Below are positions 4,932 to 63,545 of a DNA stretch of 64,000 nucleotides, piece by piece. How positions within the stretch are numbered: the first letter of the stretch is position 1; every line of letters starts with the position of its first letter. The stretch covers positions 4,282-68,281 of the forward strand of contig CAVIBR010000008.1 in the NCBI GenBank assembly GCA_963641445.1. The letters are read 5' to 3'. Under the pieces are notes generated by a model that had not been told where the DNA came from, made no database searches, and saw only the letters and a program-made list of their open reading frames with translations. The DNA is from Bacteroides uniformis (GTDB taxonomy: Bacteria > Bacillota_I > Bacilli_A > RFN20 > CAG-826). Both the position numbers and the translations under genes were made by a program.

Positions 4932-5025
4932 AAAAGATTAACTTTTTGCTTATTTTAGGCGATAAAAAGCAATTTTTCGGATGCAAATGAACGCTTTTTA
5001 CTGATGAGAAATATACCTATTTTTT

Positions 5026-5088
5026 CAAAACACCGAAAATGAAACCTTCAAAACACCGAAAATGAAACCTTCAAAACACCGAAAATGA
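5026..5088. repeat. 23 bp tandem direct repeat (caaaacaccgaaaatgaaacctt), about 2.7 copies, upstream of the ATPase gene
   Basis: Seen directly in the sequence. It sits about 55 bp upstream of the ATG at 5141. Confidence 0.8.
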
Positions 5089-5140
5089 TTGATAAGCACC
5101 TTTTATTATCATAAAATAATGAAGAAGAGATGTATTAACT

Positions 5141-8195: not shown

Positions 8196-8570
8196 ATGCA
8201 GGGCTTAATGATGTTAAGAGAATATCTCGATGAGATTCTTTCTGGAAAGAAGACTTTCGATGCTAGAAACTATCCAACAAGTATCCGTGGAGATATTGCT
8301 TTAGTTGATACAAGGAAATCGGAAATTATTGGTTTGGTTAATTTAGTTGGTATCCATGTTATTAGACCGGAAGAATACCTTACCTGGCATCAAACAGGGA
8401 AATATAAGAATGCGATCTTTCAGCTGAAAGATACGAATTCAACGTATTATGCCTATGATTTCATCAATCCTCGAAGACTAGTGACTCCAATAAAGATAAA
8501 GAAGACGGGGAAGGTTTGGACTTTAATAGACGATAGCCTTCTTTTGGACGTGCAAGGAACATTATTCTGA
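8196..8570 (+). CDS. ASCH (PUA-like) domain protein
   Basis: N-terminal ...LREYLDEILSGKKTFDARNYP resembles the ASCH-domain signature. Confidence 0.6.
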   Translation: MQGLMMLREYLDEILSGKKTFDARNYPTSIRGDIALVDTRKSEIIGLVNLVGIHVIRPEEYLTWHQTGKYKNAIFQLKDTNSTYYAYDFINPRRLVTPIKIKKTGKVWTLIDDSLLLDVQGTLF

Positions 8571-8573
8571 AAT

Positions 8574-8638
8574 AAGGAACACTTAATGCATAAATAAGGA
8601 ACGAATAAGGAACCAACAAGGAACGAATAAGGAACGGA
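8574..8638. repeat. 11 bp tandem repeat (aataaggaacg), about 5 copies
   Basis: Seen directly. It lies between the ASCH gene and the next ATPase paralog. Confidence 0.8.
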
Positions 8639-8846
8639 AATTTAAGAATAAATATAGATATCATCGCATTTTATTCATGATTGTTATAAATTAACATTGC
8701 GTTGCCTAAAAAGAAGAAAACATACCTAATTTTATCGTTTGAGAAAAGAAGAATACGCCAAAGTATCCATCAAAAGTGCGCCAAAGTCTCCATTACTATT
8801 GCCTACTTTGGCGTTTTCTAGTAATATATCTCCAGAGAAACTTATT

Positions 8847-14800: not shown

Positions 14801-15292
14801 GAATATTGCACGACTAAAAACAAGAATGTTACTCGAACAAAAGAAGGACTTTACTGCCATCATATAGATGAAGATAAAGCTATTATGCTTTCAAATGATG
14901 CTTTCGCCAGGGCGAATCCTTTTGAATACCAAAAAGCGAATAGATTAGTTTATTGTAATTTTTTGGAACACTTTCTCTTACATATATTAATTGCGGAAGA
15001 GCCTAAAAAAGCTAATGCTAACAAAAAAGAACTTCAAGGAATCGGTGGAGCAGTTAGCTTTATTTGCAAACAACTTAATGATTTGTACAATGGCTACGAA
15101 TTTAAACAAGGGTGGATGAATAACACGACATCTATTGTAAAAAACGACTATGAAAGTTACATAATGATGCTAAAAAGGCTTTGGAACGATATTAAAAACG
15201 ATGAACTTTTATCGTTTATGATAAGAAAAAAAGAGTTGGCGATGGGCTGGGATGGCAGAATTTATCCAAAAGTATTAGAAGAACTAAAATAG
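11894..15292 (+). CDS. SNF2-family (Swi2/Snf2) helicase, 1132 aa, with a roughly 450 aa N-terminal domain (HhH-like) and a roughly 250 aa C-terminal extension
   Basis: Motif I LGDEMGLGKTIQAIA, motif II DEAHYIKN, MTGTALENR, and motif VI QAISRAYRMGQSRKVLVYRL. Confidence 0.85.
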   Translation: MPKAFKFKDANKQLKFYKKLFSDMDFAERFPISCENDLLKQLKLLQTSGFFDELVEKGVNGGEFDFNQPKLMSFISNVYRLKEGTNYAKKCKEIHESMIKEMVPPMTALSDSSFILLWIFSSKAEKKAAEEAYNKLVNSRNSDLVLSAVHILETIDGLPKSSLETIKNDYSTNRIRYKQILKKMNPDVFTEGGNVKIFEEYIKEHETLIVELNEIGASIQQSKKEIKDSLERLLAEKLISSLKAIPVEELAKSKTGIKVKYLKDAGYHDLADIQLASGAQLASVYGISQDKAYTIKNVCNEYYKQILKVTKIKLSTDDKSKAATRVVKSIYVYAKKLEFSKRIGNLNAEYGDSLNQAFAKLKKIGNGVIWPFLSKLEIGETRSAFEYVKKTLSTNYEPSAKKVLQEFRKNKSNSDNAWDDFAVNSINYYNIIEEICPGLLGNGDSLYGLPEDLARQIQDECYFPDGLLCTLRKYQEWGVKYILHQEKVLLGDEMGLGKTIQAIATMVSLKNTGGTHFLVICPTSVVTNWCREIIKHSKLRVTKIHGTGKETAFNSWLKTGGVAVTNYESIPYINLRENYKISLLVVDEAHYIKNPNARRSVNARLLASHSDRLLFMTGTALENRVDEMISLISVLRPSIADQIKHLAFMSSAPEFREKIAPVYYRRKREDVLTELPDKIESKEWCVLNPEEETIYEESILSKNFQKARRISWDVDDLNKSSKAQRLKEIVDEAEAEDRKILVFSYFLDTINKIHDFLDGKCLNPINGSINVNRRQEIIDEFDKAPAGTVLLAQINSGGTGLNIQSASVVVICEPQFKPSVENQAISRAYRMGQSRKVLVYRLLCENSIDEKLVDILEEKQQLFDAFADKSVAAEKTFEIDEKTFGDVIKEEIDRINKKREIPSESSLDVPPKIENHDKPTDLKDFDYEPINVTKNGKEYYKSIMKMSYDELVQFLINKYGPAKYDYYTNEYCTTKNKNVTRTKEGLYCHHIDEDKAIMLSNDAFARANPFEYQKANRLVYCNFLEHFLLHILIAEEPKKANANKKELQGIGGAVSFICKQLNDLYNGYEFKQGWMNNTTSIVKNDYESYIMMLKRLWNDIKNDELLSFMIRKKELAMGWDGRIYPKVLEELK

Positions 15293-15348
15293 CATTCACC
15301 TGAACACATTCAAAAACATGCTATAATGAGCATATATTTTATAAACTT

Positions 15349-16335
15349 ATGCAACCTAATGAGACAATGACTCCATCATATATCGATGATTGGTTGACAA
15401 TCATTGAACAAATGAACAATGACAATACGTATAAATTAGCTTGGGGAAGAGCGGTTATTGAATGTATTTGTCTTGATCGTTCTTATGAAGAAAATGGTGA
15501 GACCATTGTCGCATTCGATGAAATTGCCAGGTGCATGATTAGATATTATTGGAATCAGTTGTTTTTCTTCAAACTCAAACAATCTCCATATAAAGACAAA
15601 GAACCAATCATTTGCTCTGATGTTAATAAGCTAATTGATGAATGGAAAACGAATAAAAACAGCGTCATTCCTACCTGGTACGACGAAAAAGATGTTAGGA
15701 AAAATAATGAAGAATTGTTTGATAAGGTTCTAAAACACGTCTCTAAGACTTTGCATGAGAATGTTAGCTGGAGATTTAAGAATGTCCCCGGCAAAACATT
15801 AGAGATTTATAACTATGATAAGGCTAATTCCAGACTTATTTTCTCTAACGACGACGCGTCTTTGCTTAAGGACGCATACGGAATAATCTTATCGAAGTTA
15901 TTGAATTACAAATGGACTCAATTGCTAGAAAAGTTCAACTATCAGCCAAAGATTGCTTTGAAGGTTTCAGGCATTTCCGATAACAAAATTAGAAGAAACA
16001 ACCTTTCTAAATATAAGGAAGAATTGCTTAAGGAATATAATGGCAAAGCAATTGATTTCTATACGGGAAAAGAACTAGAAATGAACGATATTTCCATTGA
16101 TCATGTCATTCCATGGAGTTTTATGTATTCCGATGACATCTGGAATTTGGTTATCACATCAAAATCGAATAATTCTTCAAAGAGTAATTCCATACCTAGC
16201 GAGAATGTTATTGAGAGATTGAAGGAAAGAAATAACAAATTGAAAGACATTGTGAGCGGTTCATTCAAGTTAGATATCGAAGAAGCACTTAAAAACAATT
16301 ATATCGATAAGTTCTATTACGAATGTAGGTTATAG
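15349..16335 (+). CDS. HNH-endonuclease-domain protein with an N-terminal domain of unknown function
   Basis: C-terminal ISIDHVIPWSF...DIWNLVITSKSNNSSKSN fits the HNH spacing (DH...N...N). It is 56 bp downstream of the SNF2 gene. Confidence 0.55.
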   Translation: MQPNETMTPSYIDDWLTIIEQMNNDNTYKLAWGRAVIECICLDRSYEENGETIVAFDEIARCMIRYYWNQLFFFKLKQSPYKDKEPIICSDVNKLIDEWKTNKNSVIPTWYDEKDVRKNNEELFDKVLKHVSKTLHENVSWRFKNVPGKTLEIYNYDKANSRLIFSNDDASLLKDAYGIILSKLLNYKWTQLLEKFNYQPKIALKVSGISDNKIRRNNLSKYKEELLKEYNGKAIDFYTGKELEMNDISIDHVIPWSFMYSDDIWNLVITSKSNNSSKSNSIPSENVIERLKERNNKLKDIVSGSFKLDIEEALKNNYIDKFYYECRL

Positions 16336-23608: not shown

Positions 23609-24949
23609 CTATAGCAAAAATGTCATGTATATTGGCAAATATGTTGTTTCACCATCGTAGCTTAGGGTTTTTGGTGAGACAACGATTCTATTGAATTTCA
23701 ATTGAGGGTATTTCTCTTTTAATGTAGATAAAGATGAAGTGGTGAAACGTTTTGTTGGTTTTAATTCGATTGCATTCATCTTGCCTTTTATGAACGTGAC
23801 AAAATCTATCTCATATCTTTTATTTTCATATTCAAACGTATGGTAGAAACATTTTCTTCCATTGAAAACAAGGCTTTGAACGACCAATTATTCATAAAGA
23901 CTACCGTAATTTGCTCCATCGAGATTTCCCGTTCTTATTTTTAAATATGTTTTTTCACAATCTTCGTTCATATCTCCAATTAATGAAGATAACATTAGCC
24001 CGACATCAAGGGGGTGTAGTTTGAAATTGCTTTCTTCTTTCATAAATGAGCCAAAGCTTAAATCAGAACAACGATACACTGAATTAACGATTTTAGAATC
24101 TTCTAAGTCTTTTAGTGATCTTTGATAAGACTGCATCATCCTAGGGTTTCTAGCGTTTGTTTTTATTCTTTTTGACCATGATTTCAAGGCCGGAAGCATG
24201 GAATTGTATATATTCAAAGCGTTAGTATGAGATTTGCTATCATGTTTTCTTAAATCACCTTCGTATAGCTTTAAGATATCTTGTTTTTCTTTTTCACAAC
24301 GAATGAAAGAGTTTGTTTCTTGATATAAAGAGATGACTTTTGGCATGCCGCCTAGGGCTAAATACAATCTGAAATCATTCATTAATTGAGCATGAACTGA
24401 TTCATTTATCAATCTATGTTGATTTAGGATGTCACGTAGTAGGTCGCACTTCTCATTCCAGCCGAAAGCCCAGCAGAATTCTTCAAAATCAAGTGGATGC
24501 ATCTCAATTCTTCTTTCTTCGGAAGGAATTTGGATATCCTGCGTATTTTCTCTTATTGAAATTAGGGAACCTGTTTCTATATAGTCGAATCTTCCATCTA
24601 AAACAAGTGCTTTTATTGCTTGTCTTGCGAGAGGAAAATGCTGAACTTCATCAAAGATGATTAAGTCGCCTTTTTTCAATACCTTTCCAAATATCAAAAA
24701 CAAATCGGAAAAGAATTGATCCATATAGAGATTATTTGATGGATCGATGTTTTTGAATAGGTTCTTAACTTCGTCAGAAGCATAGGCGAAATCGATATAG
24801 ATGTAGTTGCTATACTCATTTTTAGCAAATTCTTTGACGGTTGTCGTTTTTCCAACTCGCCTTGCTCCTTCGATTAAAAGAACGAAATTTTTGTTCTTCT
24901 CATTTTTCCATTCTAACATCTGATCATATATTTTTCTTTTGAATTCCAT
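23609..24949 (-). pseudogene. AAA_14/DUF4143 ATPase interrupted by an in-frame TAA (353 aa + stop + 92 aa, same frame)
   Basis: Walker A LLIEGARRVGKTT. The downstream 92 aa is the usual C-terminal domain. The TAA at 23888-23890 is in frame and the next ORF resumes immediately. Confidence 0.6.
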
Positions 24950-24987: not shown

Positions 24988-25045
24988 AAAAACATGAAAA
25001 ACTTGTATTTGGAAGCATCCAAAAACATGAAAAACTTGTATTTGG
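24988..25045. repeat. 25 bp direct repeat x2 (aaaaacatgaaaaacttgtatttgg) in the upstream region of the ATPase pseudogene
   Basis: Seen directly. Confidence 0.8.
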
Positions 25046-27944: not shown

Positions 27945-28083
27945 AAGATCTTTTAGCGCTTAATATATAAGAAATTGACTAACAAGAATTTTTAGATATC
28001 AAAAATCAAGGTATTTTTGTCTTCGAAAAAGGGTAATAAATTAAAAAAACATAGAAAACATCTAACTTCTTAAAAAATACAAT

Positions 28084-28180
28084 CTCCGATTTTTATTCCT
28101 TTTTTGAGAAAACGATACCCCGATTTTATTCCTTTTTTTGAAAATCGATGTCCGGTTTTTATTCCTTTTTGCTTTAAGTT
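28084..28180. repeat. About 33 bp tandem repeat x3 (ccgatttttattcctttttt...)
   Basis: Seen directly upstream of 28284. Confidence 0.7.
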
Positions 28181-28993: not shown

Positions 28994-29110
28994 GGGCGAA
29001 AAAGCATAAAAAATATACGATTTCGCCCTAAAAAGCAATTGACTTGAGATATACGGCTTTTAAAATATATTATATAGAGCGAAAAACACTAAATTTTATA
29101 CGATTTCGCC
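28994..29110 (+). repeat. Two copies of hairpin family 1 ([ag]gcgaaaa - 19 nt loop - tttcgc[ct]); the second abuts the RBS of the ATPase gene
   Basis: Copies at 28994-29030 and 29077-29110. Confidence 0.8.
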
Positions 29111-29120
29111 GGAGAATATT

Positions 29121-30542
29121 ATGATAGGCAGAGAAAAAGAAGTAAATGAGTTACTAGATTTATACAATGATTCTAGGGCGGAGTTAGTCGCCGTTTATGG
29201 CAGAAGAAGAGTTGGTAAAACGTTTTTAATCAACCAAACATTTAAAGACAAATTTACTTTTAAACATACCGCTTTATCCCCGGATGGCAATGAAGATGAA
29301 ACAATAGCATTACAATTAGAAAGTTTTTATAGCAGTTTAGTTAAATATGGTTTAGAAGAAACTAAGAAGCCTTCCACTTGGTTCGAAGCATTTGATTTGT
29401 TAGAGAAATTGCTTATCAAGAAAGATAACGGATCTAGGCAAGTTGTATTTTTCGATGAATTACCTTGGCTGGATACTACGAAATCATATTTTATAAAAGC
29501 ATTTGAGTCTTTTTGGAATTCATTTGGCTGCGATAGAGAGAATTTGATGCTGATTGTTTGTGGAAGTGCCAATTCTTGGATTCAAAACAATTTGATTAAC
29601 AATCATGGTGGTTTGTATGGACGTGTCACATATGAGATAAAACTTAGCGCTTTTAATTTAAAAGAGACAGAAGAATATCTAAGGTCCAACGGAATCCTTT
29701 TATCAAGATATGATATTGCAACCGCATATATGATAATGGGGGGAATACCTTATTATTTAGGATATCTCAAAAAAGGAAAAAGTCTTCCTCAGAATATCGA
29801 TGATATTTTCTTCAAGAAAGATGGACAATTATCGTTGGAATTTGATAGATTATTTCAATCATGTTTTGAAAATCCTGATTTTGCAAAGAAACTTGTTATT
29901 TTGCTAAATGAAAGAAAAATCGGATTAACGAGAAATGAAATTGTTGAAAAGCTATCTATTGGTGATGGAGGAAATTTAACAAAAGTTCTTAATTCATTAA
30001 TCTCTAGCGATTTTGTAATTAAATATATTCCATTTGGGACTAAATCAAAAATAAGCTATTACAAATTGATTGACCCATTTTGTATCTTTTATCTGAAATT
30101 TAAATACGAGAAAAGTCCAAGCGAAAGTTATTGGTCCGATAACGATACAAACTCCCAACTTAATTCATGGAAGGGACTAGCTTTTGAAAATGTCTGTTTC
30201 AATCATATAAACCAAATCAAAGATGCGTTAAGAGTTGGTGGAGTGGCAAGCAAAGAATCACCTTGGTATTTCAAAGGTATTGACAACAACGGACAAGTTG
30301 ATTTGGTTATTGAAAGAAATGATAATGTCGTAAATCTTTGCGAGATTAAATTCTATCAATATGATTTTTCCGTTGATCTGAATTATTACAAAAAATTAAA
30401 TTTAAGAATAGAAGCGGCTAGACCATATGTTTCTAAGAGAACTTGCATTTTCAATACTTTGATTACGACTTATGGGTTGCATCAAAATGAGTACAGCAAT
30501 GTTTTCCAAAACGTGATAACTCTTGATGCTCTATTTGAGTAG
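29121..30542 (+). CDS. ATPase of a second family (Arch_ATPase/DUF234-like), paralog 1
   Basis: N-terminus MIGREKEVNELLDLY...VYGRRRVGKTFLI. Confidence 0.8.
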   Translation: MIGREKEVNELLDLYNDSRAELVAVYGRRRVGKTFLINQTFKDKFTFKHTALSPDGNEDETIALQLESFYSSLVKYGLEETKKPSTWFEAFDLLEKLLIKKDNGSRQVVFFDELPWLDTTKSYFIKAFESFWNSFGCDRENLMLIVCGSANSWIQNNLINNHGGLYGRVTYEIKLSAFNLKETEEYLRSNGILLSRYDIATAYMIMGGIPYYLGYLKKGKSLPQNIDDIFFKKDGQLSLEFDRLFQSCFENPDFAKKLVILLNERKIGLTRNEIVEKLSIGDGGNLTKVLNSLISSDFVIKYIPFGTKSKISYYKLIDPFCIFYLKFKYEKSPSESYWSDNDTNSQLNSWKGLAFENVCFNHINQIKDALRVGGVASKESPWYFKGIDNNGQVDLVIERNDNVVNLCEIKFYQYDFSVDLNYYKKLNLRIEAARPYVSKRTCIFNTLITTYGLHQNEYSNVFQNVITLDALFE

Positions 30543-30580
30543 AAGATATTTCATTTATTTCCTTTATATATCAATAAACT

Positions 30581-30615
30581 AGAGCGAAAAACACTATAAT
30601 TGATACGATTTCGCT
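30581..30615 (+). repeat. Hairpin family 1, downstream copy
   Basis: agagcgaaaaacactataattgatacgatttcgct. Confidence 0.8.
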
Positions 30616-31031
30616 TTAGCTTATTTTCTATTGACATAATTATCTATATGAATGAGGGGTTTGTTTTCGCTTTCTAATAGATAATTAATATCCTATTTAT
30701 ATACAAAGATATAGATAACTAAATAATGGATATTCATAATTTTTTTGATCTATACGCAAAAGATACTGGAGTAAACATTTTTTATATAAAATGAAACTAC
30801 TGTAATCTCCATTCTTACAAAAAGTCCCTATTTTCCTAGGTTTCCTATTTATATAAAGATATTTATAGGATTACAAGAAAACAAAATATGTTTCATATAA
30901 AAATAGTAAAAGTAACAAAAATATAAAAAATATTACATTTTCTCTTGCAATGGTTACAAAAGGGTGTATTATATAGCCAAGAGATACAAAGCAGTTGAAC
31001 TTGTAACTCTTAGAAAAGTGAGGCAAAACTT

Positions 31032-33095: not shown

Positions 33096-33728
33096 ATGAG
33101 TGTTGTTGTGGCGATAAAAGAAAATGGAAAGGTTTATATGGGTTGCGATTCCCAAGTTACTTGTGGAACGACCAAAAGCACTCTAAGCAATCCTAACAAC
33201 TTTAAGATGTGGAAAGTCAAAGGAGTTGATAATTGCCTTATGGCAAGCGTTGGGGACGTAAGAAATGCTTGCGTGATAAGAACAATAGAAGATCTTGTTA
33301 CCGAATACGATGCCTATAAAGGACGTATTTGTTATGAGTTTGTTGTGAATAGGATTCTTCCTACAATCATTGAACGTCTTCAAGATGCTAATTATCTAAA
33401 AAGAGATGAAGTCTTTAGAGATTTAGGCTCAAGCATCTTGTTTGCCTATAAAGATCAGCTATATGAGATCTGTTACGATGGGTCGGTGTTTGAAATTGAT
33501 GGCTGCGTAGCGCTTGGAAGTGGAATGAAACAAGCTCTTGGAAGCATGATTGAAAGAGAAGGGGAAGATCCAAAAACAAGGATCGTCAAAGCAATCAAAT
33601 CAAGCATGTCTGATATCTATGTCGATTATCCGATAATCTTATCTGATACGGAAACAACAGAATTTAATATAATCGCTAAGGAAAACGAAACAGATTACCT
33701 TAAATCCATCGAAGGTCAAACTAGATGA
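33096..33728 (+). CDS. HslV-like / proteasome-beta-like Ntn hydrolase (peptidase T1 family)
   Basis: MSVVVAIKENGKVYMGCDSQVTCG compares to HslV [23 protein letters not shown], and CVALGSGMKQALG to AIGSGGPYAQAA. The predicted N-terminal nucleophile is Ser2 rather than Thr. Strong RBS. Confidence 0.6.
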   Translation: MSVVVAIKENGKVYMGCDSQVTCGTTKSTLSNPNNFKMWKVKGVDNCLMASVGDVRNACVIRTIEDLVTEYDAYKGRICYEFVVNRILPTIIERLQDANYLKRDEVFRDLGSSILFAYKDQLYEICYDGSVFEIDGCVALGSGMKQALGSMIEREGEDPKTRIVKAIKSSMSDIYVDYPIILSDTETTEFNIIAKENETDYLKSIEGQTR

Positions 33729-33855
33729 AGTTCTTAGGACATATTTTATCTGGCTTGTCCTAGTTTCTTTAGGATATGTCATTTGCTATTTTGGTTGGTT
33801 AAATACGCTAATTAGATGGATTGAAAATTTAGACCATTAATTAAGGAGAATTTGA

Positions 33856-35148
33856 ATGGAAAAATATACTTTAGATAATTTTGGTGGATATGAAGAAGAA
33901 AAGATTGAAGCGGAGAAAATAATCAATTTCTTAAAAAATTATGATTATTACGTCTCACAAGGGGCGTATCTTCCTAAAGGGATGCTCATATACGGTCAAC
34001 CAGGAACAGGAAAGACGATGTTATCGAAGATCATCTCTAGCGAAGCAAACGTTCCTCTTGTCACTCTAGATTTGAAGAATTCTGCTAACTTCAATTTGAT
34101 TGACGCGATAAATAAGGTCTTTGATCAAGCGCTTAGCAAGACTCCATCCGTCTTATTGCTTGATGAGATTGATCAAACCGTTAAGATGAGAAGATACGGT
34201 GATGCGACCGATAGAGAGAATGATGTTCTTAGAACATTGCTAACAAGAATTGATGGAATCAATACCTCTGATGGGGTATTTATCATTGCAACATCAAACG
34301 TTTCCTCGGTTGAAGAATGTGACCAAGCCTTAACTAGACAAGGAAGAATTGAAAAATACATCAGCCTACATTTACCGAATATCGATGAAAGAAAAGAAAT
34401 TCTAAAAATCTATCTCAATAAGAATCACATATTCGATGATGTCAATGTTGCTACACTTGCTAAACGTACAAAAGGGTTTAGTGGATCATCAATTAAATCC
34501 TTGATCAATTCCGTCTTGATATGGGCCTTAAATGAGAAAGTGGATAATGTTTCTACAGATGATTTCTATCAATATATCCAGCAAATATCTCATCGTGGAA
34601 TCAATAAGAAAAAGACTTCTGATACGGATTTAAAGGCTACGGCATATCATGAATTAGGACATTTCATCTGTGACTATATTCTAAATAAGAATATTGGAAC
34701 AATATCAATTGAAACATATGGTGAGACCGCTGGAGCATATAGACGCGTTCAAGACGAAGAAAGAGAAAATACTAGCTATACAGCCTTAAAGAATGAAATT
34801 ACTGTTGCCTTAGGAGGACTTGCTGCAGTTGAAGTGTATCTAGGAGAAAAATACACTGGAGCAGCAAGCGATATCAAAAAGGCTAGAGGCATATATGAAG
34901 AAATGCTTGATAATGGGATGCTCGGCCTAGATAGACTAAATGAAGCACCATTAAGATTGAGGTCAATTGCTGTACTTAGCTTATCTGAGGAATACCTATC
35001 TAGAGAAGGAAAATTCATGACTGAATGTTATCAGGCTGCAACGAACATTATTAAAGAAAACAAAGAAATAATTGATAAGCTCTATCCAATCTTAGTTAAG
35101 AATAAAATCATCTTCGAATCTAAGATTAATGAGATATTGAAGAAGTAG
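33856..35148 (+). CDS. Soluble FtsH-like AAA+ ATPase with M41 metallopeptidase domain (no TM or periplasmic region)
   Basis: Walker A GQPGTGKT, Walker B LLLDEID, second region of homology ATSNVSSVEECDQALTRQGRIEKYI. M41 zinc motif TAYHELGHF plus a TGAASDIKKAR block like FtsH TGASNDIKVAT. Confidence 0.75.
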   Translation: MEKYTLDNFGGYEEEKIEAEKIINFLKNYDYYVSQGAYLPKGMLIYGQPGTGKTMLSKIISSEANVPLVTLDLKNSANFNLIDAINKVFDQALSKTPSVLLLDEIDQTVKMRRYGDATDRENDVLRTLLTRIDGINTSDGVFIIATSNVSSVEECDQALTRQGRIEKYISLHLPNIDERKEILKIYLNKNHIFDDVNVATLAKRTKGFSGSSIKSLINSVLIWALNEKVDNVSTDDFYQYIQQISHRGINKKKTSDTDLKATAYHELGHFICDYILNKNIGTISIETYGETAGAYRRVQDEERENTSYTALKNEITVALGGLAAVEVYLGEKYTGAASDIKKARGIYEEMLDNGMLGLDRLNEAPLRLRSIAVLSLSEEYLSREGKFMTECYQAATNIIKENKEIIDKLYPILVKNKIIFESKINEILKK

Positions 35149-35519: not shown

Positions 35520-35640
35520 TTTTGGCGGAAAGTGTCAAAAAAAATTGAGTTTCCGCCAAAAATGTTTAGAATTTTTTCTTATTTTTATGATAAGATAATT
35601 GGCGGAAAGTACTAAAAAAATTGAGTTTCCGCCAAAAATG
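35520..35640 (+). repeat. Two copies of hairpin family 2 (ttttggcggaaa - 18 nt loop - tttccgccaaaa); the second abuts the RBS
   Basis: Copies at 35520-35564 and 35598-35640. Confidence 0.8.
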
Positions 35641-35652
35641 GAGGTTTAAAGT

Positions 35653-37071
35653 ATGATTATCGGAAGAGAAAAAGAAGTCAATATCTTGCAAGAAAATTAT
35701 AAGTCGGATGGATCATCATTTATTGCAGTTTATGGCAGAAGAAGAATTGGTAAAACTTTTCTTATCAATGAAACTTTGGGCGATAAAATTCTTTTTAGGC
35801 ATGCAGGCATTTATGGTGGCACTTGCAAACAGCAAATAAAGTCTTTCATGAAATCTCTTGCTGAATATGGATATGCTCCCCAAGACAACGTTAAGGATTG
35901 GTTTGACGCTTTCGAAGAATTGAAAAATTATATAAAGTCTTCCAATGAAAGCAAAAAGGTTTTGTTTTTTGATGAAATCGCTTGGATGTATACGAAAAAA
36001 TCTGATTTCGTTCGTGCATTAGAATATTTCTGGAATAGCTGGGCAAGTGCTAGAAAAGATATTATGTTAGTGATTTGCTCTTCTGCAACATCTTGGATAA
36101 TCAACAATATAGTTCATAGCAAAGGCGGTTTATATAATAGGATTACGGCACAAATATATTTAGAACCATTTACATTGAATGAGTGTGAAAAATATTGTGC
36201 ATACAAGAATTTAGCTTTGACTCGTAAACAAATAATTGAAACCTATATGGTTATTGGTGGTGTTCCATATTATTGGAATTATCTAAAAAAAGGAGAATCA
36301 GTTGCTAAATTTATTGATAACAATTTCTTTGCTAACAATTCTCCATTAAGTGATGAACTGAAATATATATTTTCTTCTTTGTTTTCTTCGCCTGAAGCTT
36401 ATTTAAAAATCATTGAGGCGTTATCAGAGAAAAAATATGGCTTAACTAGGCAAGAAATTCTAATTGAAACAAAGCAGGATGAAAACGGCAATTTCTCACA
36501 AAAAATAGAAGATTTAGTAAACTGCGGATTTATAAGAGAGTATTCATCTTTCAAATCGAAAAAGAAAGAAGTACTTTACCAATTGATTGATCCTTTTACC
36601 ATTTTCCATTTTCATTTTTTGAAGAAAAGAGTGAATGATGAGAATTTTTGGGCAAATCAAATAAATTCTCCTACTATAAACGCATGGAAAGGCCTTGCTT
36701 TTGAAAGAATCTGCCTGTTGCATCTAAATAGTATTAAGAAAGCAATGGGAATATTTGGAGTATATACATCAGTTTATCCTTTTTCATGCAAGCAAAATGA
36801 GGAGAAGAACATATTCGGATCTCAAATTGATATGGTTTTAGAAAGAAAAGACGATATTGTGAATCTTTTTAAAATTAAATATTATGATGAGCCTTTCTCA
36901 TTAACTAAAAAGCATCTTGAATTATTTTCAAGGAAAAAACATGATTTTGTGGAAGTTACAAAAACCAAATCATCTATTCATTTATCTTTGATTTCATTGA
37001 ATGGCGTAGTTGAAAACGAGTATCTTAATGAGATTCAAACCGTTCTTAACGAAGATGATTTGTTCTTATAA
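35653..37071 (+). CDS. ATPase of a second family (Arch_ATPase/DUF234-like), paralog 2
   Basis: MIIGREKEVNILQENY...VYGRRRIGKTFLI. Confidence 0.8.
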   Translation: MIIGREKEVNILQENYKSDGSSFIAVYGRRRIGKTFLINETLGDKILFRHAGIYGGTCKQQIKSFMKSLAEYGYAPQDNVKDWFDAFEELKNYIKSSNESKKVLFFDEIAWMYTKKSDFVRALEYFWNSWASARKDIMLVICSSATSWIINNIVHSKGGLYNRITAQIYLEPFTLNECEKYCAYKNLALTRKQIIETYMVIGGVPYYWNYLKKGESVAKFIDNNFFANNSPLSDELKYIFSSLFSSPEAYLKIIEALSEKKYGLTRQEILIETKQDENGNFSQKIEDLVNCGFIREYSSFKSKKKEVLYQLIDPFTIFHFHFLKKRVNDENFWANQINSPTINAWKGLAFERICLLHLNSIKKAMGIFGVYTSVYPFSCKQNEEKNIFGSQIDMVLERKDDIVNLFKIKYYDEPFSLTKKHLELFSRKKHDFVEVTKTKSSIHLSLISLNGVVENEYLNEIQTVLNEDDLFL

Positions 37072-37091
37072 ATTGTAGCTTTTTAATTATT

Positions 37092-37134
37092 TTTGGCGGA
37101 AAGTGCCTAAAAAATTGAGTTTCCGCCAAAAATG
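37092..37134 (+). repeat. Hairpin family 2, downstream copy
   Basis: ttttggcggaaagtgcctaaaaaattgagtttccgccaaaaatg. Confidence 0.8.
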
Positions 37135-37443: not shown

Positions 37444-38376
37444 GTGTTTCTTATTGGTGGGTCTAGAGGATGTGGGAAGACCGTTTTACTTTCTCAACTC
37501 AAAGAACATTTCGATAAAAGTGATGATTGGGTTTGCGTTGATTTAAATCCGTTTTTAGATATGTTTGAACAACTTGCCTCTAAACTCTACTCGGAAGGAA
37601 AACTTAAACATCTATTTTTGAAAAGTGAATTTTCTATTTCTTTCAAGGGCATTTCCTTTTCTCTTTCTGGAGAGAATCCAGTTACTGATGCATCCTCATT
37701 AATAAAGGCGATGTTGCAGTATTTAAAAAAGAAAGGGAAACGTGTCTTGATAACTATTGATGATATATCAGGAAATTCTGAAGCAAAGGCTTTCTTCCAA
37801 GGCTACCAATCGTTCATTAGAGAGAAGTTTGATATCTTTCTCCTTATGACTGGTTTATATGAAAATGTATCTAATATTGTTAACGATAAAAGTCTAACCT
37901 TCCTTCTAAGGACTCCTAACATATACTTATCAAAGTTAAACGTTAGGGGGATTAGCCTTTCATATCAAAACCAGTTGGGCGTTGGCTTTGACAAGGCTTT
38001 AGAATTCGCAAAGCTTACTAAGGGCTACGCCTATGCATATCAATTACTTGGCGACCTTTTATACCGCACTGACAAAAAAATTACTGAAGAAATTCTTCAA
38101 TCTTTTGATTCTACATTAGAAGATAACGTATATAACAAGATTTGGAGCTCTTTATCTAAGAATCAAAAAACGATATGTTATGCGTTGTCTTCATTAAATA
38201 AAAAAGAAGTTAAAGAACTAATTGATTCAACTGGCTTCTCTAATTCGATGATTCAAGTATACAAAAAGAGAATGTATTTAGTGGGTATATTAGATTTATC
38301 AACTAGAGGAGAAATAGATTTTTCTTTGCCTAGATTTAAAGAATTTGTTAAATTTCAAAAAGCGTTAGAAGAATAA
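37444..38376 (+). CDS. Divergent P-loop ATPase paralog with no canonical start; possible pseudogene
   Basis: GGSRGCGKT. The frame is open back to 37339 with no ATG. The ORF track begins at a GTG. Confidence 0.4.
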   Translation: MFLIGGSRGCGKTVLLSQLKEHFDKSDDWVCVDLNPFLDMFEQLASKLYSEGKLKHLFLKSEFSISFKGISFSLSGENPVTDASSLIKAMLQYLKKKGKRVLITIDDISGNSEAKAFFQGYQSFIREKFDIFLLMTGLYENVSNIVNDKSLTFLLRTPNIYLSKLNVRGISLSYQNQLGVGFDKALEFAKLTKGYAYAYQLLGDLLYRTDKKITEEILQSFDSTLEDNVYNKIWSSLSKNQKTICYALSSLNKKEVKELIDSTGFSNSMIQVYKKRMYLVGILDLSTRGEIDFSLPRFKEFVKFQKALEE

Positions 38377-53090: not shown

Positions 53091-53116
53091 GTTTTTTGAT
53101 AAGCAAAATCTTTATA

Positions 53117-53157
53117 TTTCCCTAAAAGTAGTATTTTTCACCAAGTTTTAGGGAATT
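53117..53157 (-). repeat. Hairpin family 3 (ttccctaaaa - 20 nt loop - ttttagggaa), copy downstream of the minus-strand ATPase gene
   Basis: atttccctaaaagtagtatttttcaccaagttttagggaat. Confidence 0.8.
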
Positions 53158-53164
53158 ATAACTA

Positions 53165-54592
53165 TTAGAGGAATAAGTCTTCTCCGATAATTTCCTTTTG
53201 AATTACATCGGAATGAGAATTCTCTTTCAAACCGTTATTAGTAATCATCGTTAACACCAATTGTTCATTTGGTTTAACTTCATTTGCAAAGACTTGTATT
53301 TTGTGAAGAAGATTCTCTTCATAATCTTTTGTTATTTCATATTTGCCAATGGAATGTTTGATTTCACATACGTTTATGATCATGTCTCTTCTATGAATCA
53401 ATAAATCGATTTGAGCGCCAGGATCTGATTTTTTGCTTTTCCAGGAATATTCTTTTGTCATTACTCCTGATATCCCTAAAGCATTTTTAATCGAAGATAT
53501 ATTGTTTAGGCAAAGAATTTCAAAAGCATGTCCTGCCCAAGCATAATATGCAGGCGTATTTATGAATGATAGCCAATTGTCGAAAGAGGGTGAGATGAGA
53601 AAAGTTTTAGCAAACAAAGTGAATGGATCAATTAATTGGTAGAACTTATTGTTTTTTGCCGTGTTATAGTTTTCATAGGCTCTTACAAAACCACACTCGG
53701 ATAATTCTTCTAAAGCAGTAGTTAAGGATTTTCCATCACCTATAGATGAAATCGAAGCAAGTTCTTTTCTTTGCATACCCATGCTTTTCTTCATCAATGC
53801 TTCGATTATTTCTCTATGTTTCCCTTTTGCGTTGAATAGAGACCTAAACAAAGCCTGATATTCGTCATGCAACTGACCACTTTCTTTGAAACATAAATTA
53901 TCGATATTTTGAGCTAAGCTCATTTCTGAATCTAATAAATCCCAATAATATGGGATTCCGCCAAAAACCATGTAAGTTTCAATTATTTGGCTTTTTGTAT
54001 AATGCAATTTCAATTGCTCGCTATATAAAAGACATTCTTTCAATGAGAAAGGCATTAGATGTATTTTTCTTGTCAAACGATTATAAAAACCGCCAGTATC
54101 TTTGACCATGTTGTTCATAATCCAAGATGTAGCAGAACCACATACAATGAAGACTAAGTCGTTTTGCATTGAACCATAGGTATTCCAGAATGAATCTAAG
54201 CCTGCTTTAAAATCGCTTCTTTTCCCATCCATCCACGGTAATTCATCTAAGAATACAATTCTTTTCTTATAAATTGGATCACGATAAACGTTATCGCTTT
54301 CTAAGAATTTCTTTAGAAGCCTAAAAGCGTCAAGCCAATCCTTTGGCTCAGAGCCATCTTCAATCTTATAGCTATAATCAACCAAGGCATTGGTGAAATT
54401 CTTTAGTTGAAAAGCATTGTTTTTGTTATTTATGCCACTGGCATAGAAAGAGAACTTGTTGTTAAAGAACTTTTTAATAAGATATGTTTTGCCGACTCTT
54501 CGTCTTCCGTATAAAACCAAGAATTCTGGTTTAGAAGATTTTAGGCAAGATAGAAGTTCTTTTTGCTCATCAACACGACCGATTAAGTTCAT
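53165..54592 (-). CDS. ATPase of a second family (Arch_ATPase/DUF234-like), paralog 3
   Basis: MNLIGRVDEQKELLSCL...LYGRRRVGKTYLI. Same architecture as 29121 and 35653. Confidence 0.8.
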   Translation of the reverse strand: MNLIGRVDEQKELLSCLKSSKPEFLVLYGRRRVGKTYLIKKFFNNKFSFYASGINNKNNAFQLKNFTNALVDYSYKIEDGSEPKDWLDAFRLLKKFLESDNVYRDPIYKKRIVFLDELPWMDGKRSDFKAGLDSFWNTYGSMQNDLVFIVCGSATSWIMNNMVKDTGGFYNRLTRKIHLMPFSLKECLLYSEQLKLHYTKSQIIETYMVFGGIPYYWDLLDSEMSLAQNIDNLCFKESGQLHDEYQALFRSLFNAKGKHREIIEALMKKSMGMQRKELASISSIGDGKSLTTALEELSECGFVRAYENYNTAKNNKFYQLIDPFTLFAKTFLISPSFDNWLSFINTPAYYAWAGHAFEILCLNNISSIKNALGISGVMTKEYSWKSKKSDPGAQIDLLIHRRDMIINVCEIKHSIGKYEITKDYEENLLHKIQVFANEVKPNEQLVLTMITNNGLKENSHSDVIQKEIIGEDLFL

Positions 54593-54604
54593 ATAAAGCC
54601 TCCT

Positions 54605-54729
54605 ATTTCCCTAAAAGTTGTGGATTTTGATAAGTTTTAGGGAATTATAGATATATTATAGACTACTTTTTGAACTTATAAATAGTTATATTTCCCTAAA
54701 AGTTGTGTTTTCTAATAAGTTTTAGGTAA
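54605..54729 (-). repeat. Two copies of hairpin family 3 upstream of the minus-strand ATPase gene; the proximal one abuts the RBS
   Basis: Copies at 54605-54645 and 54689-54729. Confidence 0.8.
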
Positions 54730-54774
54730 TTATTAATTTTTGGAAGAGCTGTTTTTAAAATTAGAATATGAAAT

Positions 54775-62237: not shown

Positions 62238-63545
62238 GTGGATTTCAAAGAGGATCAGCATACAGAATTGAAGGAAAATTCAAAAAGCGGAACAATCATA
62301 AATGAGATTATTGCTTTTTTGAATACCTGCGATGGCGTTATCTATATCGGGGTTAAAGATGATGGACAATTAGTTGGAATAGATGATATTGATTCTGCAT
62401 CTTTATTCATTTCAAACATCGTTGCAGACCAAATTGAGCCAAGTCCTAGAGGACTCGTGGAAATTGACACGCCAATAATCGATGAGAAACAAATATTAAA
62501 AATCTCTATCAAGAAAGGCAATAAGCTTTATTATATCAAGAAATATGGAATGAGCAGTGCCGGTTGTTTTGAAAGAATCGGAACTTCATCAAGAGGAATG
62601 ACGCCTGAACAAATATTGAAGAGATTTGCTGAAACGATAAGCCTTCCGGAAAGGAAAATGGTTGATATACCATGCAATAGAACGGATTTGACTTTCTCAA
62701 AATTCAAGATGTATTTGGGCGCAAGAAACGTTCATTGGAACGAATCAAAGTTCGAAGAGAATTTCAATCTCTTAACACCAGACGGAAAATATAACCTCAT
62801 CGCTGATCTTCTTGCGGATGAAAATCTAGACTCAATAAAAGTCGCTATTTTCAGAGGCAAAGATAAATCTGATTACCTTAAAAGAAACGAATATGGATTT
62901 ACTTGTCTTTTGTATGCAATGGATCAGGCTAGCGAATACTGCTTAGCATTGAATGACACATATGTCGATACATCTAAAATGGTTAGACAAGAGAAGAAAT
63001 TATTTGATGAAGACGCATTTAGAGAAGCGTGGATTAACGCTGTTGTCCATAACAAATGGATCGATGGAATACCTCCAGCAATCTATTGGTTTGAAGATAG
63101 ATTGGAAATCATTTCATACGGAACGATTCCAAATGGAATGACAAAAGATGAGTTCCTATCAGGCAAGACCCATCCAGTAAACGAAGAATTAATGAAGATT
63201 TTTCTCCAATGTCACATCGTTGAACAAACGGGGCACGGAGTTCCAAAAGTTATTAAGAAATATGGCGTTAATGCCTATAATTTTGGCACGTCCACAATAA
63301 CCGTGACAATTCCTTTTGATAGGAATGGATTCAATGATGAACCCCAAAATGAACCCCAAAATGAACCCCAAAAAAGTATCTTTGAATTTATTATGGAGGA
63401 AATAGCTAACAATCCATCTATTTCAAAGACAAAACTTGCTGAGGATTGCGGCGTCTCGCTTTCAACAATTAAAAGAGTCCTCAAGAAAAATGGAATTGTC
63501 TTTATTGGTTCGAGCAAATCTGGGCATTGGGAAACCAAAAGGTGA
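62238..63545 (+). CDS. AlbA_2 (Schlafen-like) + HATPase_c_4 + C-terminal wHTH protein ('RecG-like putative transcriptional regulator' family)
   Basis: Domain-like N-terminus FKEDQHTELKENSK...GVIYIGVKDDGQLVGI. C-terminal HTH IANNPSISKTKLAEDCGVSLSTIKRVL. Contains an internal (EPQN)x3 repeat. Confidence 0.6.
   Translation: MDFKEDQHTELKENSKSGTIINEIIAFLNTCDGVIYIGVKDDGQLVGIDDIDSASLFISNIVADQIEPSPRGLVEIDTPIIDEKQILKISIKKGNKLYYIKKYGMSSAGCFERIGTSSRGMTPEQILKRFAETISLPERKMVDIPCNRTDLTFSKFKMYLGARNVHWNESKFEENFNLLTPDGKYNLIADLLADENLDSIKVAIFRGKDKSDYLKRNEYGFTCLLYAMDQASEYCLALNDTYVDTSKMVRQEKKLFDEDAFREAWINAVVHNKWIDGIPPAIYWFEDRLEIISYGTIPNGMTKDEFLSGKTHPVNEELMKIFLQCHIVEQTGHGVPKVIKKYGVNAYNFGTSTITVTIPFDRNGFNDEPQNEPQNEPQKSIFEFIMEEIANNPSISKTKLAEDCGVSLSTIKRVLKKNGIVFIGSSKSGHWETKR

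What the first reader, a model, noticed from the sequence alone, without database searches (positions are those of the whole stretch)
53117..54729. Third hairpin-bracketed ATPase cassette, on the minus strand (family 3: ttccctaaaa / ttttagggaa)
Copies at 54689-54729 and 54605-54645 lie upstream; the latter ends 12 nt before the ATG and spans the RBS AGGAGG. A third copy lies downstream at 53117-53157. The arrangement relative to the gene is the same as in cassettes 1 and 2 despite the opposite genomic orientation. This argues that the hairpins travel with the gene rather than with the locus.
Basis: seen in the sequence. Interest (0 to 1): 0.55.

Follow-up and report, generated by a model that had tools for sequence, protein, structure and literature searches.

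The report
Private palindromic sites flanking ATPase-nuclease gene
A gene for an ATPase fused to a nuclease (a widespread but untested "candidate phage-defence" protein) carries three copies of its own private ~50-bp palindromic DNA site, two around its promoter and one after its stop codon. The same layout recurs in relatives across many bacterial phyla, so the protein most likely binds these sites and controls its own gene.

Summary
TTCCCTAAAA-N18-TTTTAGGGAA occurs three times in 64 kb, only around the minus-strand gene 53165-54592 (0 expected by chance). The gene encodes a 475-aa protein with AAA+/STAND ATPase, winged-helix and PD-(D/E)xK nuclease domains. It is a full-length match to PADLOC candidate defence family PDC-S27. 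Two paralogues in the window (39-41% identical) have the same 2-upstream + 1-downstream layout with different arm sequences.

In 79 analysable loci (76 homologue loci from many phyla plus the window's three cassettes), 65 have a strong upstream palindrome, against 10 of 243 control windows.

Aligned on the dyad centre, all sites share one geometry:
- A/T peaks at 0, ±10.5 and ±21
- TTT at +10 to +12
- G/C at ±14-15

Tandem sites lie 5, 6, 7 or 8 helical turns apart. There is no G·U bias, and the central A-tract lies on either strand. These features point to duplex-DNA protein-binding sites rather than RNA hairpins.

The best reading is cognate operators bound by the cassette's own protein, giving autoregulation. 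This is inferred, not shown.

A minority reading is recombination sites. Synteny breakpoints coincide with palindrome edges, and one solo palindrome exists in a close relative. No recent mobility was seen.

I found no description of these sites in the searchable literature.

The parts
54685..54735 (-). Distal upstream dyad site (centre 54710.5; arms 54720-54729 / 54692-54701, one mismatch). It lies just upstream of the promoter-like hexamers.
   Evidence: It is the 5th-best hit in the whole window (21.0 bits) of a site model built only from foreign loci. Homology to relative L081 starts at 54733, 4 nt outside it.
54655..54682 (-). Best sigma-70-like promoter match (TTTATA-16-TATAAT), between the distal and proximal sites.
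   Evidence: 10 of 12 matches. This is a consensus match only. The equivalent position holds the best match in the sister cassettes too.
54600..54650 (-). Proximal upstream dyad site (centre 54625.5; perfect 10-nt arms 54635-54644 / 54607-54616). It lies between the predicted transcription start and the ribosome-binding site.
   Evidence: I9; 19.9 bits. Centre-to-centre distance to the distal site is 85 bp, about 8 helical turns.
54599..54604 (-). Shine-Dalgarno AGGAGG, 6 nt before the ATG and directly abutting the proximal site.
   Evidence: Read from the sequence.
53165..54592 (-). Gene for a 475-aa PDC-S27-family protein. Domains: AAA+/STAND ATPase (aa 1-195), lid (196-255), winged helix (256-325), PD-(D/E)xK nuclease (345-475; D396, E410, K412).
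   Evidence: Pfam ATPase_2/AAA_14. PADLOC PDC-S27, E = 5.6e-181, full length. AlphaFold2 pLDDT 91. Foldseek hits to 2qen, STAND, ORC/Cdc6 and Apaf-1. Invariant residues.
53111..53162 (-). Downstream dyad site (centre 53136.5; perfect 10-nt arms, extended 21-nt arms at 86%). It starts about 10 nt after the stop codon, between the convergent ATPase and choloylglycine-hydrolase genes.
   Evidence: I3; 25.1 bits.
28996..30614 (+). Sister cassette 1: sites at 28996-29026, 29079-29109 and 30584-30614 around gene 29121-30542 (473 aa).
   Evidence: In the 97%-identical relative L091 the junction lies exactly at 30584.
35524..37127 (+). Sister cassette 2: sites at 35524-35557, 35601-35633 and 37095-37127 around gene 35653-37071 (472 aa).
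   Evidence: These are the three top hits of the foreign-locus site model (26.1-30.2 bits).

Best explanation
The three 'hairpins' are copies of a roughly 50-bp dyad-symmetric site in duplex DNA. The cassette's own product recognises this site. That product is an AAA+/STAND ATPase with a winged-helix domain and a C-terminal PD-(D/E)xK nuclease (PDC-S27 family).

A dimer, or a higher oligomer, binds along one face of the DNA. Each half-site has a family-wide core (TTT at +10 to +12, G-C at +14/+15) and gene-specific neighbouring bases. Phased A/T tracts lie at 0, +/-10.5 and +/-21.

The distal and proximal sites sandwich the promoter. The proximal site covers the start of the transcript up to the ribosome-binding site. 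Occupancy would therefore repress the gene and keep a potentially dangerous nuclease at a low, self-limited level.

The third site, just past the stop codon, would let bound protein bridge both ends of the gene, either as a loop or as a roadblock that insulates it from neighbouring transcription.

Shown here: the existence, statistics, geometry, gene linkage and concerted arm variation of the sites, and the domain architecture of the protein.

Inferred, not shown: that this protein is the binder, that binding represses transcription, and what the 3' site does.
For: 1. Specificity must be encoded by the cassette. Three paralogues within 25 kb have three different arm sequences. Each occurs exactly three times and only at its own gene. 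The ATPase is the only gene in the unit.

2. The feature is family-wide. 65 of 79 loci have an upstream palindrome scoring at least 10, against 10 of 243 control windows. 69 have a full site, 16 have two or more upstream, and 10 have one within 200 nt after the stop. The 2-upstream + 1-downstream layout recurs in L025, L053 and L058.

3. The arms vary but stay complementary. Positions 11-16, which were not used for selection, are 65-77% complementary, against about 30% in permutations. All four Watson-Crick pair types occur at every position.

4. The signatures are those of duplex DNA.
- Aligned on the dyad, the A+T fraction is at least 0.9 at 0, +/-10-11 and +/-20-22.
- It is about 0.23 at +/-14-15, where G reaches 79% at +14/14.5.
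- Neighbouring upstream sites are 52-54, 63, 72.5-76.5 or 83-85 bp apart, that is 5, 6, 7 or 8 turns. Resultant length is 0.84 at a 10.5-bp period.
- The central A-tract is on either strand (38 A, 29 T).
- Mismatches show no G.U excess (16 G.T against 24 A.C).

5. A site model built only from foreign loci ranks 8 of the window's 9 cassette palindromes as its top 8 hits in 64 kb. They score 18.6-30.2 bits and the next best scores 14.2.

6. The best promoter-like hexamers lie between the distal and proximal sites in all three cassettes. The distal copy is therefore probably not transcribed.

7. The protein has a canonical winged helix (aa 256-325) in a confident model (pLDDT 91). Its fold matches ORC/Cdc6 and STAND proteins, which bind DNA through that domain.
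Against: - No binding or expression data exist for any family member.
- I found no convincing covariation between half-site bases and winged-helix residues. Arm similarity correlates no better with winged-helix identity than with other domains. Mutual information is only marginally higher there (0.196 against 0.174-0.179). The sample of 69 loci is small and phylogenetically structured.
- A 3' operator is not needed for simple autorepression and is present in only about 10 of 79 loci.
- Half-site cores 29 bp apart (2.76 turns) are not on exactly the same face.
- Synteny breakpoints coincide with palindrome edges. Plain autoregulation does not predict this.
Confidence: 0.6

Rival explanations
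1. The palindromes are recombination sites that delimit an exchangeable gene unit. The ATPase-nuclease, or host recombination between the direct copies, excises, deletes or replaces the gene at the palindromes. The layout loosely parallels an integron cassette with its attC, or an element flanked by attL and attR.
For: - Homology between the window and the 84%-identical relative L081 begins 4 nt outside the distal palindrome (54733).
- In the 95-97%-identical relative L091, the cassette-1 gene is replaced by a different ATPase-nuclease gene. The junction falls exactly on the first base of the downstream palindrome (30584). That palindrome persists there as a solo copy.
- The cassette-2 segment 35478-37145 is exactly what is missing at a 10-N gap in L091.
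- The distal and downstream copies are direct repeats. They are about 49 nt near-identical in L081. In the 1603-bp contig L217 the same ~30-mer forms both ends.
- The protein carries a nuclease domain.
Against: - There is no sign of recent movement. Paralogues are only 39-41% identical. The identical protein P0077 was read in 23 contigs, always in one context.
- No integrase or transposase is found among ORFs of 150 aa or more in the window.
- The L091 'empty site' is a run of N, so it is a scaffold gap and not a clean junction.
- Another close relative, L093, has cassette 2 in place.
- In the viral-contig group L222-L229 the break lies about 290 nt from the palindrome.
- Helical phasing of tandem sites and their placement around the promoter are not explained by this model.
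- The genomes compared are heavily rearranged anyway.
Confidence: 0.15
2. The elements act as RNA stem-loops. A 5'-UTR hairpin next to the ribosome-binding site controls translation or stability, and a 3' hairpin ends or stabilises the transcript.
For: - If transcribed, the proximal and downstream copies fold with dG of -11 to -20 kcal/mol and z-scores of -3.2 to -6.4 against shuffles.
- The proximal copy abuts the Shine-Dalgarno sequence.
- The downstream copy sits where a terminator would be.
Against: - The distal copy lies upstream of the best promoter match.
- There is no G.U-over-A.C bias among 68 arm mismatches.
- The loop A-tract appears on either strand.
- The 10.5-bp A/T periodicity and whole-turn spacing of tandem sites have no RNA rationale.
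- Loops of 12-18 nt are poor hairpins.
- No terminator-like site was found: no G+C-rich stem and no T-run.
- Rfam gives no hit.
Confidence: 0.08
3. The sites are substrates or licensing platforms for the nuclease/ATPase activity rather than transcriptional operators. The protein is parked or assembled on its own locus and is released or activated on infection. Alternatively, the enzyme resembles a restriction enzyme, and its recognition sequence also occurs at its own gene.
For: - It shares the evidence above for cognate binding.
- The protein has a nuclease domain with an intact D...ExK motif.
- The family is listed as a candidate defence system (PMC12988326).
- The ORC/STAND-like fold suggests nucleotide-dependent assembly on DNA.
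Against: - A target of 20 or more specified bases is too rare to be useful against foreign DNA. Exact arms gave 0 (family 3) and 1 (family 2) hits in 2.9 million viral contigs.
- Cleaving its own flanks would be self-destructive.
- Placement relative to the promoter and ribosome-binding site points to expression control.
Confidence: 0.12

Closest known systems
PADLOC 'phage defence candidate' PDC-S27 (COG1672-type ATPase_2 + DUF234-like PD-(D/E)xK proteins)
   Same: All three window proteins match the PDC-S27 HMM end to end (E about 1e-180). They have the ATPase + PD-(D/E)xK architecture described for the family (PMC12988326; DUF234 listed as PD-(D/E)xK in PMC3424549).
   Different: The family is known only as a protein HMM found by 'guilt by embedding'. 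Most candidates of this class still await experimental validation (PMC12988326), and I found no experimental test of PDC-S27 itself. None of the papers I could search mentions flanking palindromes or DNA-binding specificity. The cis-elements are the new part.
Controller (C) proteins and C-boxes of restriction-modification systems; more generally autoregulated defence or toxin genes (comparison from established knowledge)
   Same: Dyad-symmetric operators sit at the promoter of a nuclease-encoding unit. They are system-specific in sequence and are presumed to keep nuclease expression in check.
   Different: Here no separate small HTH regulator exists, so the presumed binder is the ATPase-nuclease itself. 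The sites are much larger (about 50 bp, half-site cores 29 bp apart, phased A-tracts). One copy lies beyond the 3' end of the gene.
Archaeal Orc1/Cdc6 and origin recognition boxes (ORB)
   Same: The fold is AAA+ plus winged helix (Foldseek hits to ORC/Cdc6). Repeated dyad-containing boxes lie beside the protein's own gene and flank an A/T-rich stretch.
   Different: This is not an origin. There are three units with different specificities within 25 kb, and GC skew does not switch sign. The protein carries an extra nuclease domain. Sequence similarity to Cdc6 is only at fold level.
Integron gene cassettes with attC sites
   Same: Imperfect inverted repeats of variable sequence but conserved structure accompany single genes. 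One copy sits at the 3' end.
   Different: There are two further copies upstream with a promoter between them. No shared GTTRRRY-type core is present; the family core is TTT-N2-GC. No integrase was found, there is no cassette array, and the signatures are those of duplex DNA.
PDC-S01-type genes (AAA_14 + DUF4143) in the same window and in relatives
   Same: This is a second ATPase + PD-(D/E)xK family. Its members also carry gene-specific repeats just upstream (L081; L091).
   Different: Their repeats are tandem direct repeats (2-4 copies, period 11-38 nt), not palindromes. That implies a different mode of assembly on DNA.

Membership tests
PDC-S27 (PADLOC candidate defence family) | Full-length match to the family HMM | tested here: met
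   PDLC04984, E = 5.6e-181, residues 2-474 of 475 against profile positions 3-473 of 474. Both paralogues match likewise.
PDC-S27 (PADLOC candidate defence family) | [quoted passage not shown] | tested here: met
   Pfam PF01637 and PF13173 score above their cut-offs. G29-R-R-R-x-G34-K35-T36 and D116-E117 are invariant in 68 sequences.
PDC-S27 (PADLOC candidate defence family) | C-terminal PD-(D/E)xK nuclease domain with catalytic D...ExK | tested here: met
   D396 and K412 are invariant and E410 is at least 90% conserved. The model shows an alpha/beta domain at residues 347-475. One paralogue gives weak DUF234/DUF4143 Pfam hits.
PDC-S27 (PADLOC candidate defence family) | Protects against phage | not testable with these tools
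   [quoted passage not shown] I found no test of PDC-S27.
Integron cassette / attC | One attC at the 3' end of a promoterless cassette, with conserved R/L core sites shared by all cassettes | tested here: not met
   Two further copies lie upstream, with promoter-like hexamers between them. Arms differ completely between cassettes. The family-wide core is TTT-N2-GC.
Integron cassette / attC | Integron integrase and cassette array nearby | tested here: not met
   No recombinase domain appears in the window ORFs of 150 aa or more that were scanned. The cassettes are separated by ordinary genes.
Insertion sequence / transposon | Near-identical copies in different contexts; transposase; target-site duplication | tested here: not met
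   Paralogues are 39-41% identical. An identical protein read in 23 contigs has one context. No transposase domain was found, and no duplication is evident at the flanks.
Intrinsic terminator / known structured RNA | G+C-rich short-loop stem followed by a T-run, or a match to an Rfam family | tested here: not met
   No terminator-like sites were found in any of the three cassette regions. Rfam gives no hit at E <= 1. Loops are 12-18 nt.
Autoregulatory operator (C-box-like logic) | Dyad-symmetric sites overlapping or flanking the promoter of the regulator's own gene | tested here: met
   Positions relative to the promoter-like hexamers and the ATG. The median end of the proximal site core is -52.
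Autoregulatory operator (C-box-like logic) | The encoded protein binds the sites and changes transcription | not testable with these tools
   This needs EMSA or footprinting and reporter assays. Covariation tests were inconclusive.
Orc1/Cdc6-ORB replication origin | AAA+ plus winged-helix initiator fold | tested here: met
   Foldseek hits to ORC/Cdc6 chains and 1fnn with probability 1.00.
Orc1/Cdc6-ORB replication origin | Acts as an origin (skew switch, single or few per replicon) | tested here: not met
   GC skew is positive across nearly all of the 64 kb and does not switch sign at the cassettes. There are three units with different specificity within 25 kb, and thousands of family members.

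The most novel reading that the evidence does not exclude
PDC-S27 genes, and in parallel PDC-S01 genes with their tandem direct repeats, are self-contained units. Each consists of a sequence-specific ATPase-nuclease plus its own private DNA sites, and the sites also serve as the breakpoints at which these genes are excised, lost and swapped between genomes. This would be a previously unrecognised kind of gene cassette whose 'recombinase' is the AAA+/PD-(D/E)xK protein itself. The facts that fit this reading are the breakpoints at palindrome edges, the solo palindrome in L091, and the direct repeats of 30-49 nt that bracket the gene.
Probability: 0.12. Interest if true: 0.85.

Novelty: new variant of a known kind. 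Interest (0 to 1): 0.6.

Why it matters
PDC-S27 and PDC-S01 are among the most frequently annotated 'candidate defence' genes. One survey counted 3,503 archaeal plus 4,562 bacterial S27 loci and about 39,000 S01 loci (PMC12988326). Nothing is known about how they work.

Each member carries a private ~50-bp dyad site of fixed geometry around its own gene. This gives the first concrete handle on mechanism and has four consequences.

- It predicts that these proteins bind DNA sequence-specifically, and that each has its own specificity.
- It makes the autoregulation, looping and cleavage models directly testable, because the DNA substrates are now defined.
- It offers thousands of natural, probably orthogonal protein-site pairs from which a recognition code could be derived.
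- It warns that 'defence' annotation of these very abundant genes rests on context alone.

The sites also explain why these genes often assemble as isolated contigs of about 1.6 kb.

Tried and rejected
1. Scan of metagenome contigs with the exact family-3 arms. It gave 120 hits, none next to a PDC-S27 gene. They are unrelated perfect stem-loops with short loops, including a recurrent human-gut element.

2. Viral-contig scans with exact arms gave 0 and 1 hits. This gives no support for phage targets.

3. The 'empty site' for cassette 2 in the close relative L091 looked decisive. It turned out to be a run of 10 N, that is a scaffold gap. L093 has the cassette in place.

4. More distant relatives anchored on the M18 aminopeptidase (84-93% identity) have unrelated neighbourhoods, so no further junctions could be read.

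5. Tests for a domain-specific protein/arm correlation and for mutual information between half-site positions and protein columns gave no convincing signal.

6. RNA folding energies do not discriminate, because any palindrome folds.

7. Rfam, a PDB sequence search and NCBIfam gave no hits.

8. Literature searches for DUF234, PDC-S27, DUF4143, COG1672 and PF01637 found no mention of these repeats.

9. The replication-origin reading is rejected on skew and copy number.
Full report
**1. Observation**

On the minus strand, the ORF 53165-54592 (475 aa, ATG, AGGAGG 6 nt upstream) is flanked by three copies of a palindrome.
- Two copies are perfect: TTCCCTAAAA-N18-TTTTAGGGAA at 54644-54607 and 53155-53118.
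- One copy has a single arm mismatch, at 54729-54692.

The exact pattern is expected 0.00 times in shuffles. A relaxed pattern finds exactly these three sites in 64 kb, against 0.01 expected. Extended arms reach 16-21 nt. The proximal copy ends 12 nt before the ATG. It abuts the Shine-Dalgarno sequence but does not contain it.

Two more genes of the same family lie at 29121-30542 and 35653-37071. Each has two upstream copies and one downstream copy of a different palindrome, again exactly three copies in the window. The three proteins are 39-41% identical to each other.

**2. The gene**

Pfam finds ATPase_2 and AAA_14 in the N-terminal half. One paralogue also gives weak DUF234/DUF4143 hits in the C-terminal part. 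PADLOC's PDC-S27 model matches all three proteins end to end, with E about 1e-180. NCBIfam has nothing.

An AlphaFold2 model built on 68 sequences is confident (pLDDT 91, pTM 0.89). It shows four parts:
- an AAA+ core (residues 1-195)
- a helical lid (196-255)
- a canonical winged helix (256-325)
- an alpha/beta domain (347-475) carrying the conserved D396...E410-x-K412

Foldseek's best solved match is the Pyrococcus Walker-type ATPase 2qen. It is followed by STAND proteins, ORC/Cdc6, Apaf-1/CED-4 and plant NLRs. A profile search of PDB sequences finds nothing.

The literature treats PDC-S27 as an unvalidated, very abundant 'phage defence candidate' with an ATPase fused to a PD-(D/E)xK domain (PMC12988326). 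DUF234 and DUF4143 were assigned to that nuclease superfamily in 2012 (PMC3424549). No paper I could search mentions repeats around these genes.

**3. The palindromes are a property of the whole family**

The protein search returned about 8,000 clusters. I fetched 80 loci from one-genome-per-species contigs. They cover Bacteroidota, several Firmicutes lineages, Treponema, Actinomycetota, Succinatimonas, Lentisphaerae and Kiritimatiellae.

Of the 79 loci that could be analysed (76 of these homologue loci plus the window's three cassettes):
- 65 have a palindrome scoring at least 10 within 250 nt upstream. Random 250-nt windows from the same loci give 10 of 243.
- 69 have a full site, 16 have two or more upstream, and 10 have one within 200 nt after the stop.
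- The 2-upstream + 1-downstream layout recurs in L025, L053 and L058.

The arm motif hardly ever recurs elsewhere within +/-2.5 kb. Arms differ between loci but are shared by close relatives: L001 and L002, 66-67% identical to this protein, keep TTCCCTAAAA-like arms. Both arms change together. At positions 11-16, which were not used to pick the sites, complementarity is 65-77% against about 30% after permutation. All four Watson-Crick pair types occur at every position.

**4. Duplex-DNA site or folded hairpin?**

Several independent features point to duplex DNA bound by protein.

(a) Common geometry. When 97 sites are aligned on their dyad centre, they share one geometry whatever their arm sequence:
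- The A+T fraction is at least 0.9 at 0, +/-10-11 and +/-20-22.
- It is about 0.23 at +/-14-15.
- T is at 65-86% from +9 to +11.5.
- G is at 79% at +14/14.5, and C is at 50-60% at +15/15.5.

This amounts to a 10.5-bp A/T periodicity along about 50 bp, with half-site cores 29 bp apart. The 'variable loop lengths' seen earlier came from accidental extra pairing.

(b) Helical phasing. Neighbouring upstream sites are 52-54, 63, 72.5-76.5 or 83-85 bp apart, that is 5, 6, 7 or 8 helical turns. The mean resultant is 0.84 at a 10.5-bp period, with phase +0.6 bp. Related loci are not independent, so the Rayleigh p-value is only indicative.

(c) A-tract orientation. The central A-tract lies on either strand (38 A against 29 T), sometimes differing within one locus.

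(d) No wobble bias. Arm mismatches show no excess of G.U-compatible pairs (16 G.T against 24 A.C).

(e) Promoter position. In all three window cassettes the best promoter-like hexamers lie between the distal and proximal sites. The distal copy is therefore probably not in the transcript.

(f) Cross-validation. A dyad model built only from the foreign loci, scanned over the whole window, ranks eight of the nine cassette palindromes as its top eight hits. They score 18.6-30.2 bits and the next best scores 14.2.

The RNA evidence is weak. RNA folding of the copies is favourable, but that holds for any palindrome. No terminator-like features and no Rfam family are present.

**5. Mechanism proposed**

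The variable part of the site is specific to each paralogue, and the unit contains a single gene. The simplest reading is that the ATPase-nuclease binds its own sites through the winged helix, perhaps with AAA+ contacts as in ORC (the ORC comparison is from established knowledge).

The distal and proximal sites flank the promoter, and the proximal one reaches the ribosome-binding site. Occupancy should therefore repress the gene. That would be a sensible safeguard for a nuclease that moves between genomes. Whole-turn spacing suggests cooperative binding. The 3' site could close a loop around the gene or act as a roadblock.

None of these steps has been shown. My attempts to locate the specificity determinants by covariation failed for lack of data.

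**6. The recombination rival**

Three comparative observations are not predicted by autoregulation.
- Homology to relative L081 (84% nucleotide identity) starts 4 nt outside the distal palindrome. Beyond that point L081 has a PDC-S01-like gene instead of the window's GGDEF/EAL gene.
- In L091 (95-97% identity), window segment 28189-30583 is replaced by a PDC-S01-like gene. That segment holds a 227-aa ORF plus cassette 1. The junction falls exactly on the first base of the downstream palindrome, which survives there as a solo copy with compensatory arm changes.
- The cassette-2 segment 35478-37145 is what is missing in L091. However, the gap is 10 N, so it is a scaffold gap and not a clean empty site. 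L093 has the cassette in place.

The distal and downstream copies are also long direct repeats. They are about 49 nt near-identical in L081. In the 1603-bp Logan contig L217 the same ~30-mer forms both ends. This explains the many cassette-sized contigs, and it would allow deletion by homologous recombination.

Several points count against an active mobile element.
- Paralogues are old.
- An identical protein seen in 23 contigs has a single context.
- There is no integrase or transposase in the window.
- In another group of loci the break is about 290 nt away from the palindrome.
- These genomes are rearranged everywhere.

I give this rival about 0.15.

**7. Comparison with known systems**

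The protein is a member of PDC-S27: the HMM, ATPase and nuclease motifs are all met, and only function is untested.

The cis-elements work most like system-specific operators of nuclease-encoding units, such as C-boxes. They differ in three ways: the presumed binder is the enzyme itself, the site is about 50 bp with phased A-tracts, and one copy is 3' of the gene.

The anatomy also recalls Orc1/Cdc6 with ORB boxes, and the fold matches. An origin function is excluded by copy number and by a GC skew that does not switch sign.

The defining features of integron attC sites, IS elements and terminators were tested and not met.

**8. Verdict**

The finding is real, statistically solid and general. 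It adds an undescribed cis-component to a very abundant, uncharacterised protein family. The kind of thing (cognate binding sites with probable autoregulation) is familiar, so I rate it a new variant of a known kind, with interest 0.6. The cassette or recombination reading is the most novel one that is still open (probability about 0.12).

Noticed in passing
window 5024-5092 (before gene 5141-6424), 8559-8636 (before gene 8739-10121), 24988-25045 (before minus-strand gene 23888-24949): Each AAA_14(+DUF4143) 'PDC-S01-like' ATPase-nuclease gene in the window has its own tandem direct repeats just upstream: 3 x 23 nt, an 11/22-nt AATAAGGAAC series, and 2 x 25 nt. This parallels the PDC-S27 palindromes, but with direct rather than dyad symmetry.
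   Followed up: partly
window 28080-28175; L091 19050-19160: An orphan triple direct repeat (GATTTTTATTCCTTTTT-like) followed by TTGACT sits in the window with no PDC-S01-type gene after it. In the 97%-identical relative L091 the same repeats precede an intact AAA_14/DUF4143 gene (L091 17692-19014). In the window that gene has been replaced by a 227-aa ORF plus cassette 1.
   Followed up: partly
L091 17545-17579 (= window 30584-30618): A solo family-1 palindrome lies with no PDC-S27 gene next to it. Its arms (GGCGAAA/TTTCGCC) differ from the window copy (GAGCGAAA/TTTCGCT) by changes on both arms that keep the dyad, although the flanks are 97% identical.
   Followed up: partly
L091 12676-12685 (between window-equivalent 35477 and 37146): A run of 10 N in a close relative's scaffold replaces exactly the cassette-2 segment. 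It may reflect presence/absence heterogeneity in that metagenome, or an assembly break at the repeats.
   Followed up: no
L217 1-30 and 1574-1603; L081 5017-5072 and 6598-6647: In relatives of cassette 3 the distal and downstream copies are near-identical direct repeats of 30-49 nt. The gene therefore assembles as a separate ~1.6-kb contig whose two ends are the same 30-mer. Many contigs of 1.6-2 kb appear in the homologue table.
   Followed up: partly
L081 4880-5000: The PDC-S01-like gene next to the cassette-3 orthologue has four direct repeats, CACATTTTATGAGGGAGTTTT (the last one degenerate), in its own upstream region.
   Followed up: no
window 37444-38376: An ATPase_2/KAP/NB-ARC-like P-loop ORF (310 aa, GTG start) lies right after cassette 2. 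It is 349 aa in L091 and split into 191 + 134 aa in L093, so it is probably decaying.
   Followed up: no
window 1357-1947, 2692-3738, 11894-16335, 33096-35148, 62238-63545: The window is dense in defence-island-type genes: a Macro domain, Fic, an SNF2 helicase followed by an HNH protein, a proteasome-like subunit next to a membrane-less FtsH-like AAA protease, and a Schlafen/AlbA_2-HATPase_c_4-HTH protein.
   Followed up: no
L104, L114, L122, L125 and many other metagenome loci: A recurrent human-gut element...TGTGAAATT(N6)CCA-TTCCCTAAAAGTGTGCAGATGCACRGTTTTAGGGAA-TGAAAAG..., shares the 10-nt arms by coincidence. It is a perfect short-loop stem-loop unrelated to PDC-S27.
   Followed up: no
L220 2878-2918 and 4424-4459; L221; L231: IMG/VR 'viral' contigs also carry PDC-S27 homologues with upstream and downstream palindromes. 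One contig (IMGVR_UViG_3300021319_000137) carries two different ones. I did not check whether these are prophage cargo or host flanks.
   Followed up: no
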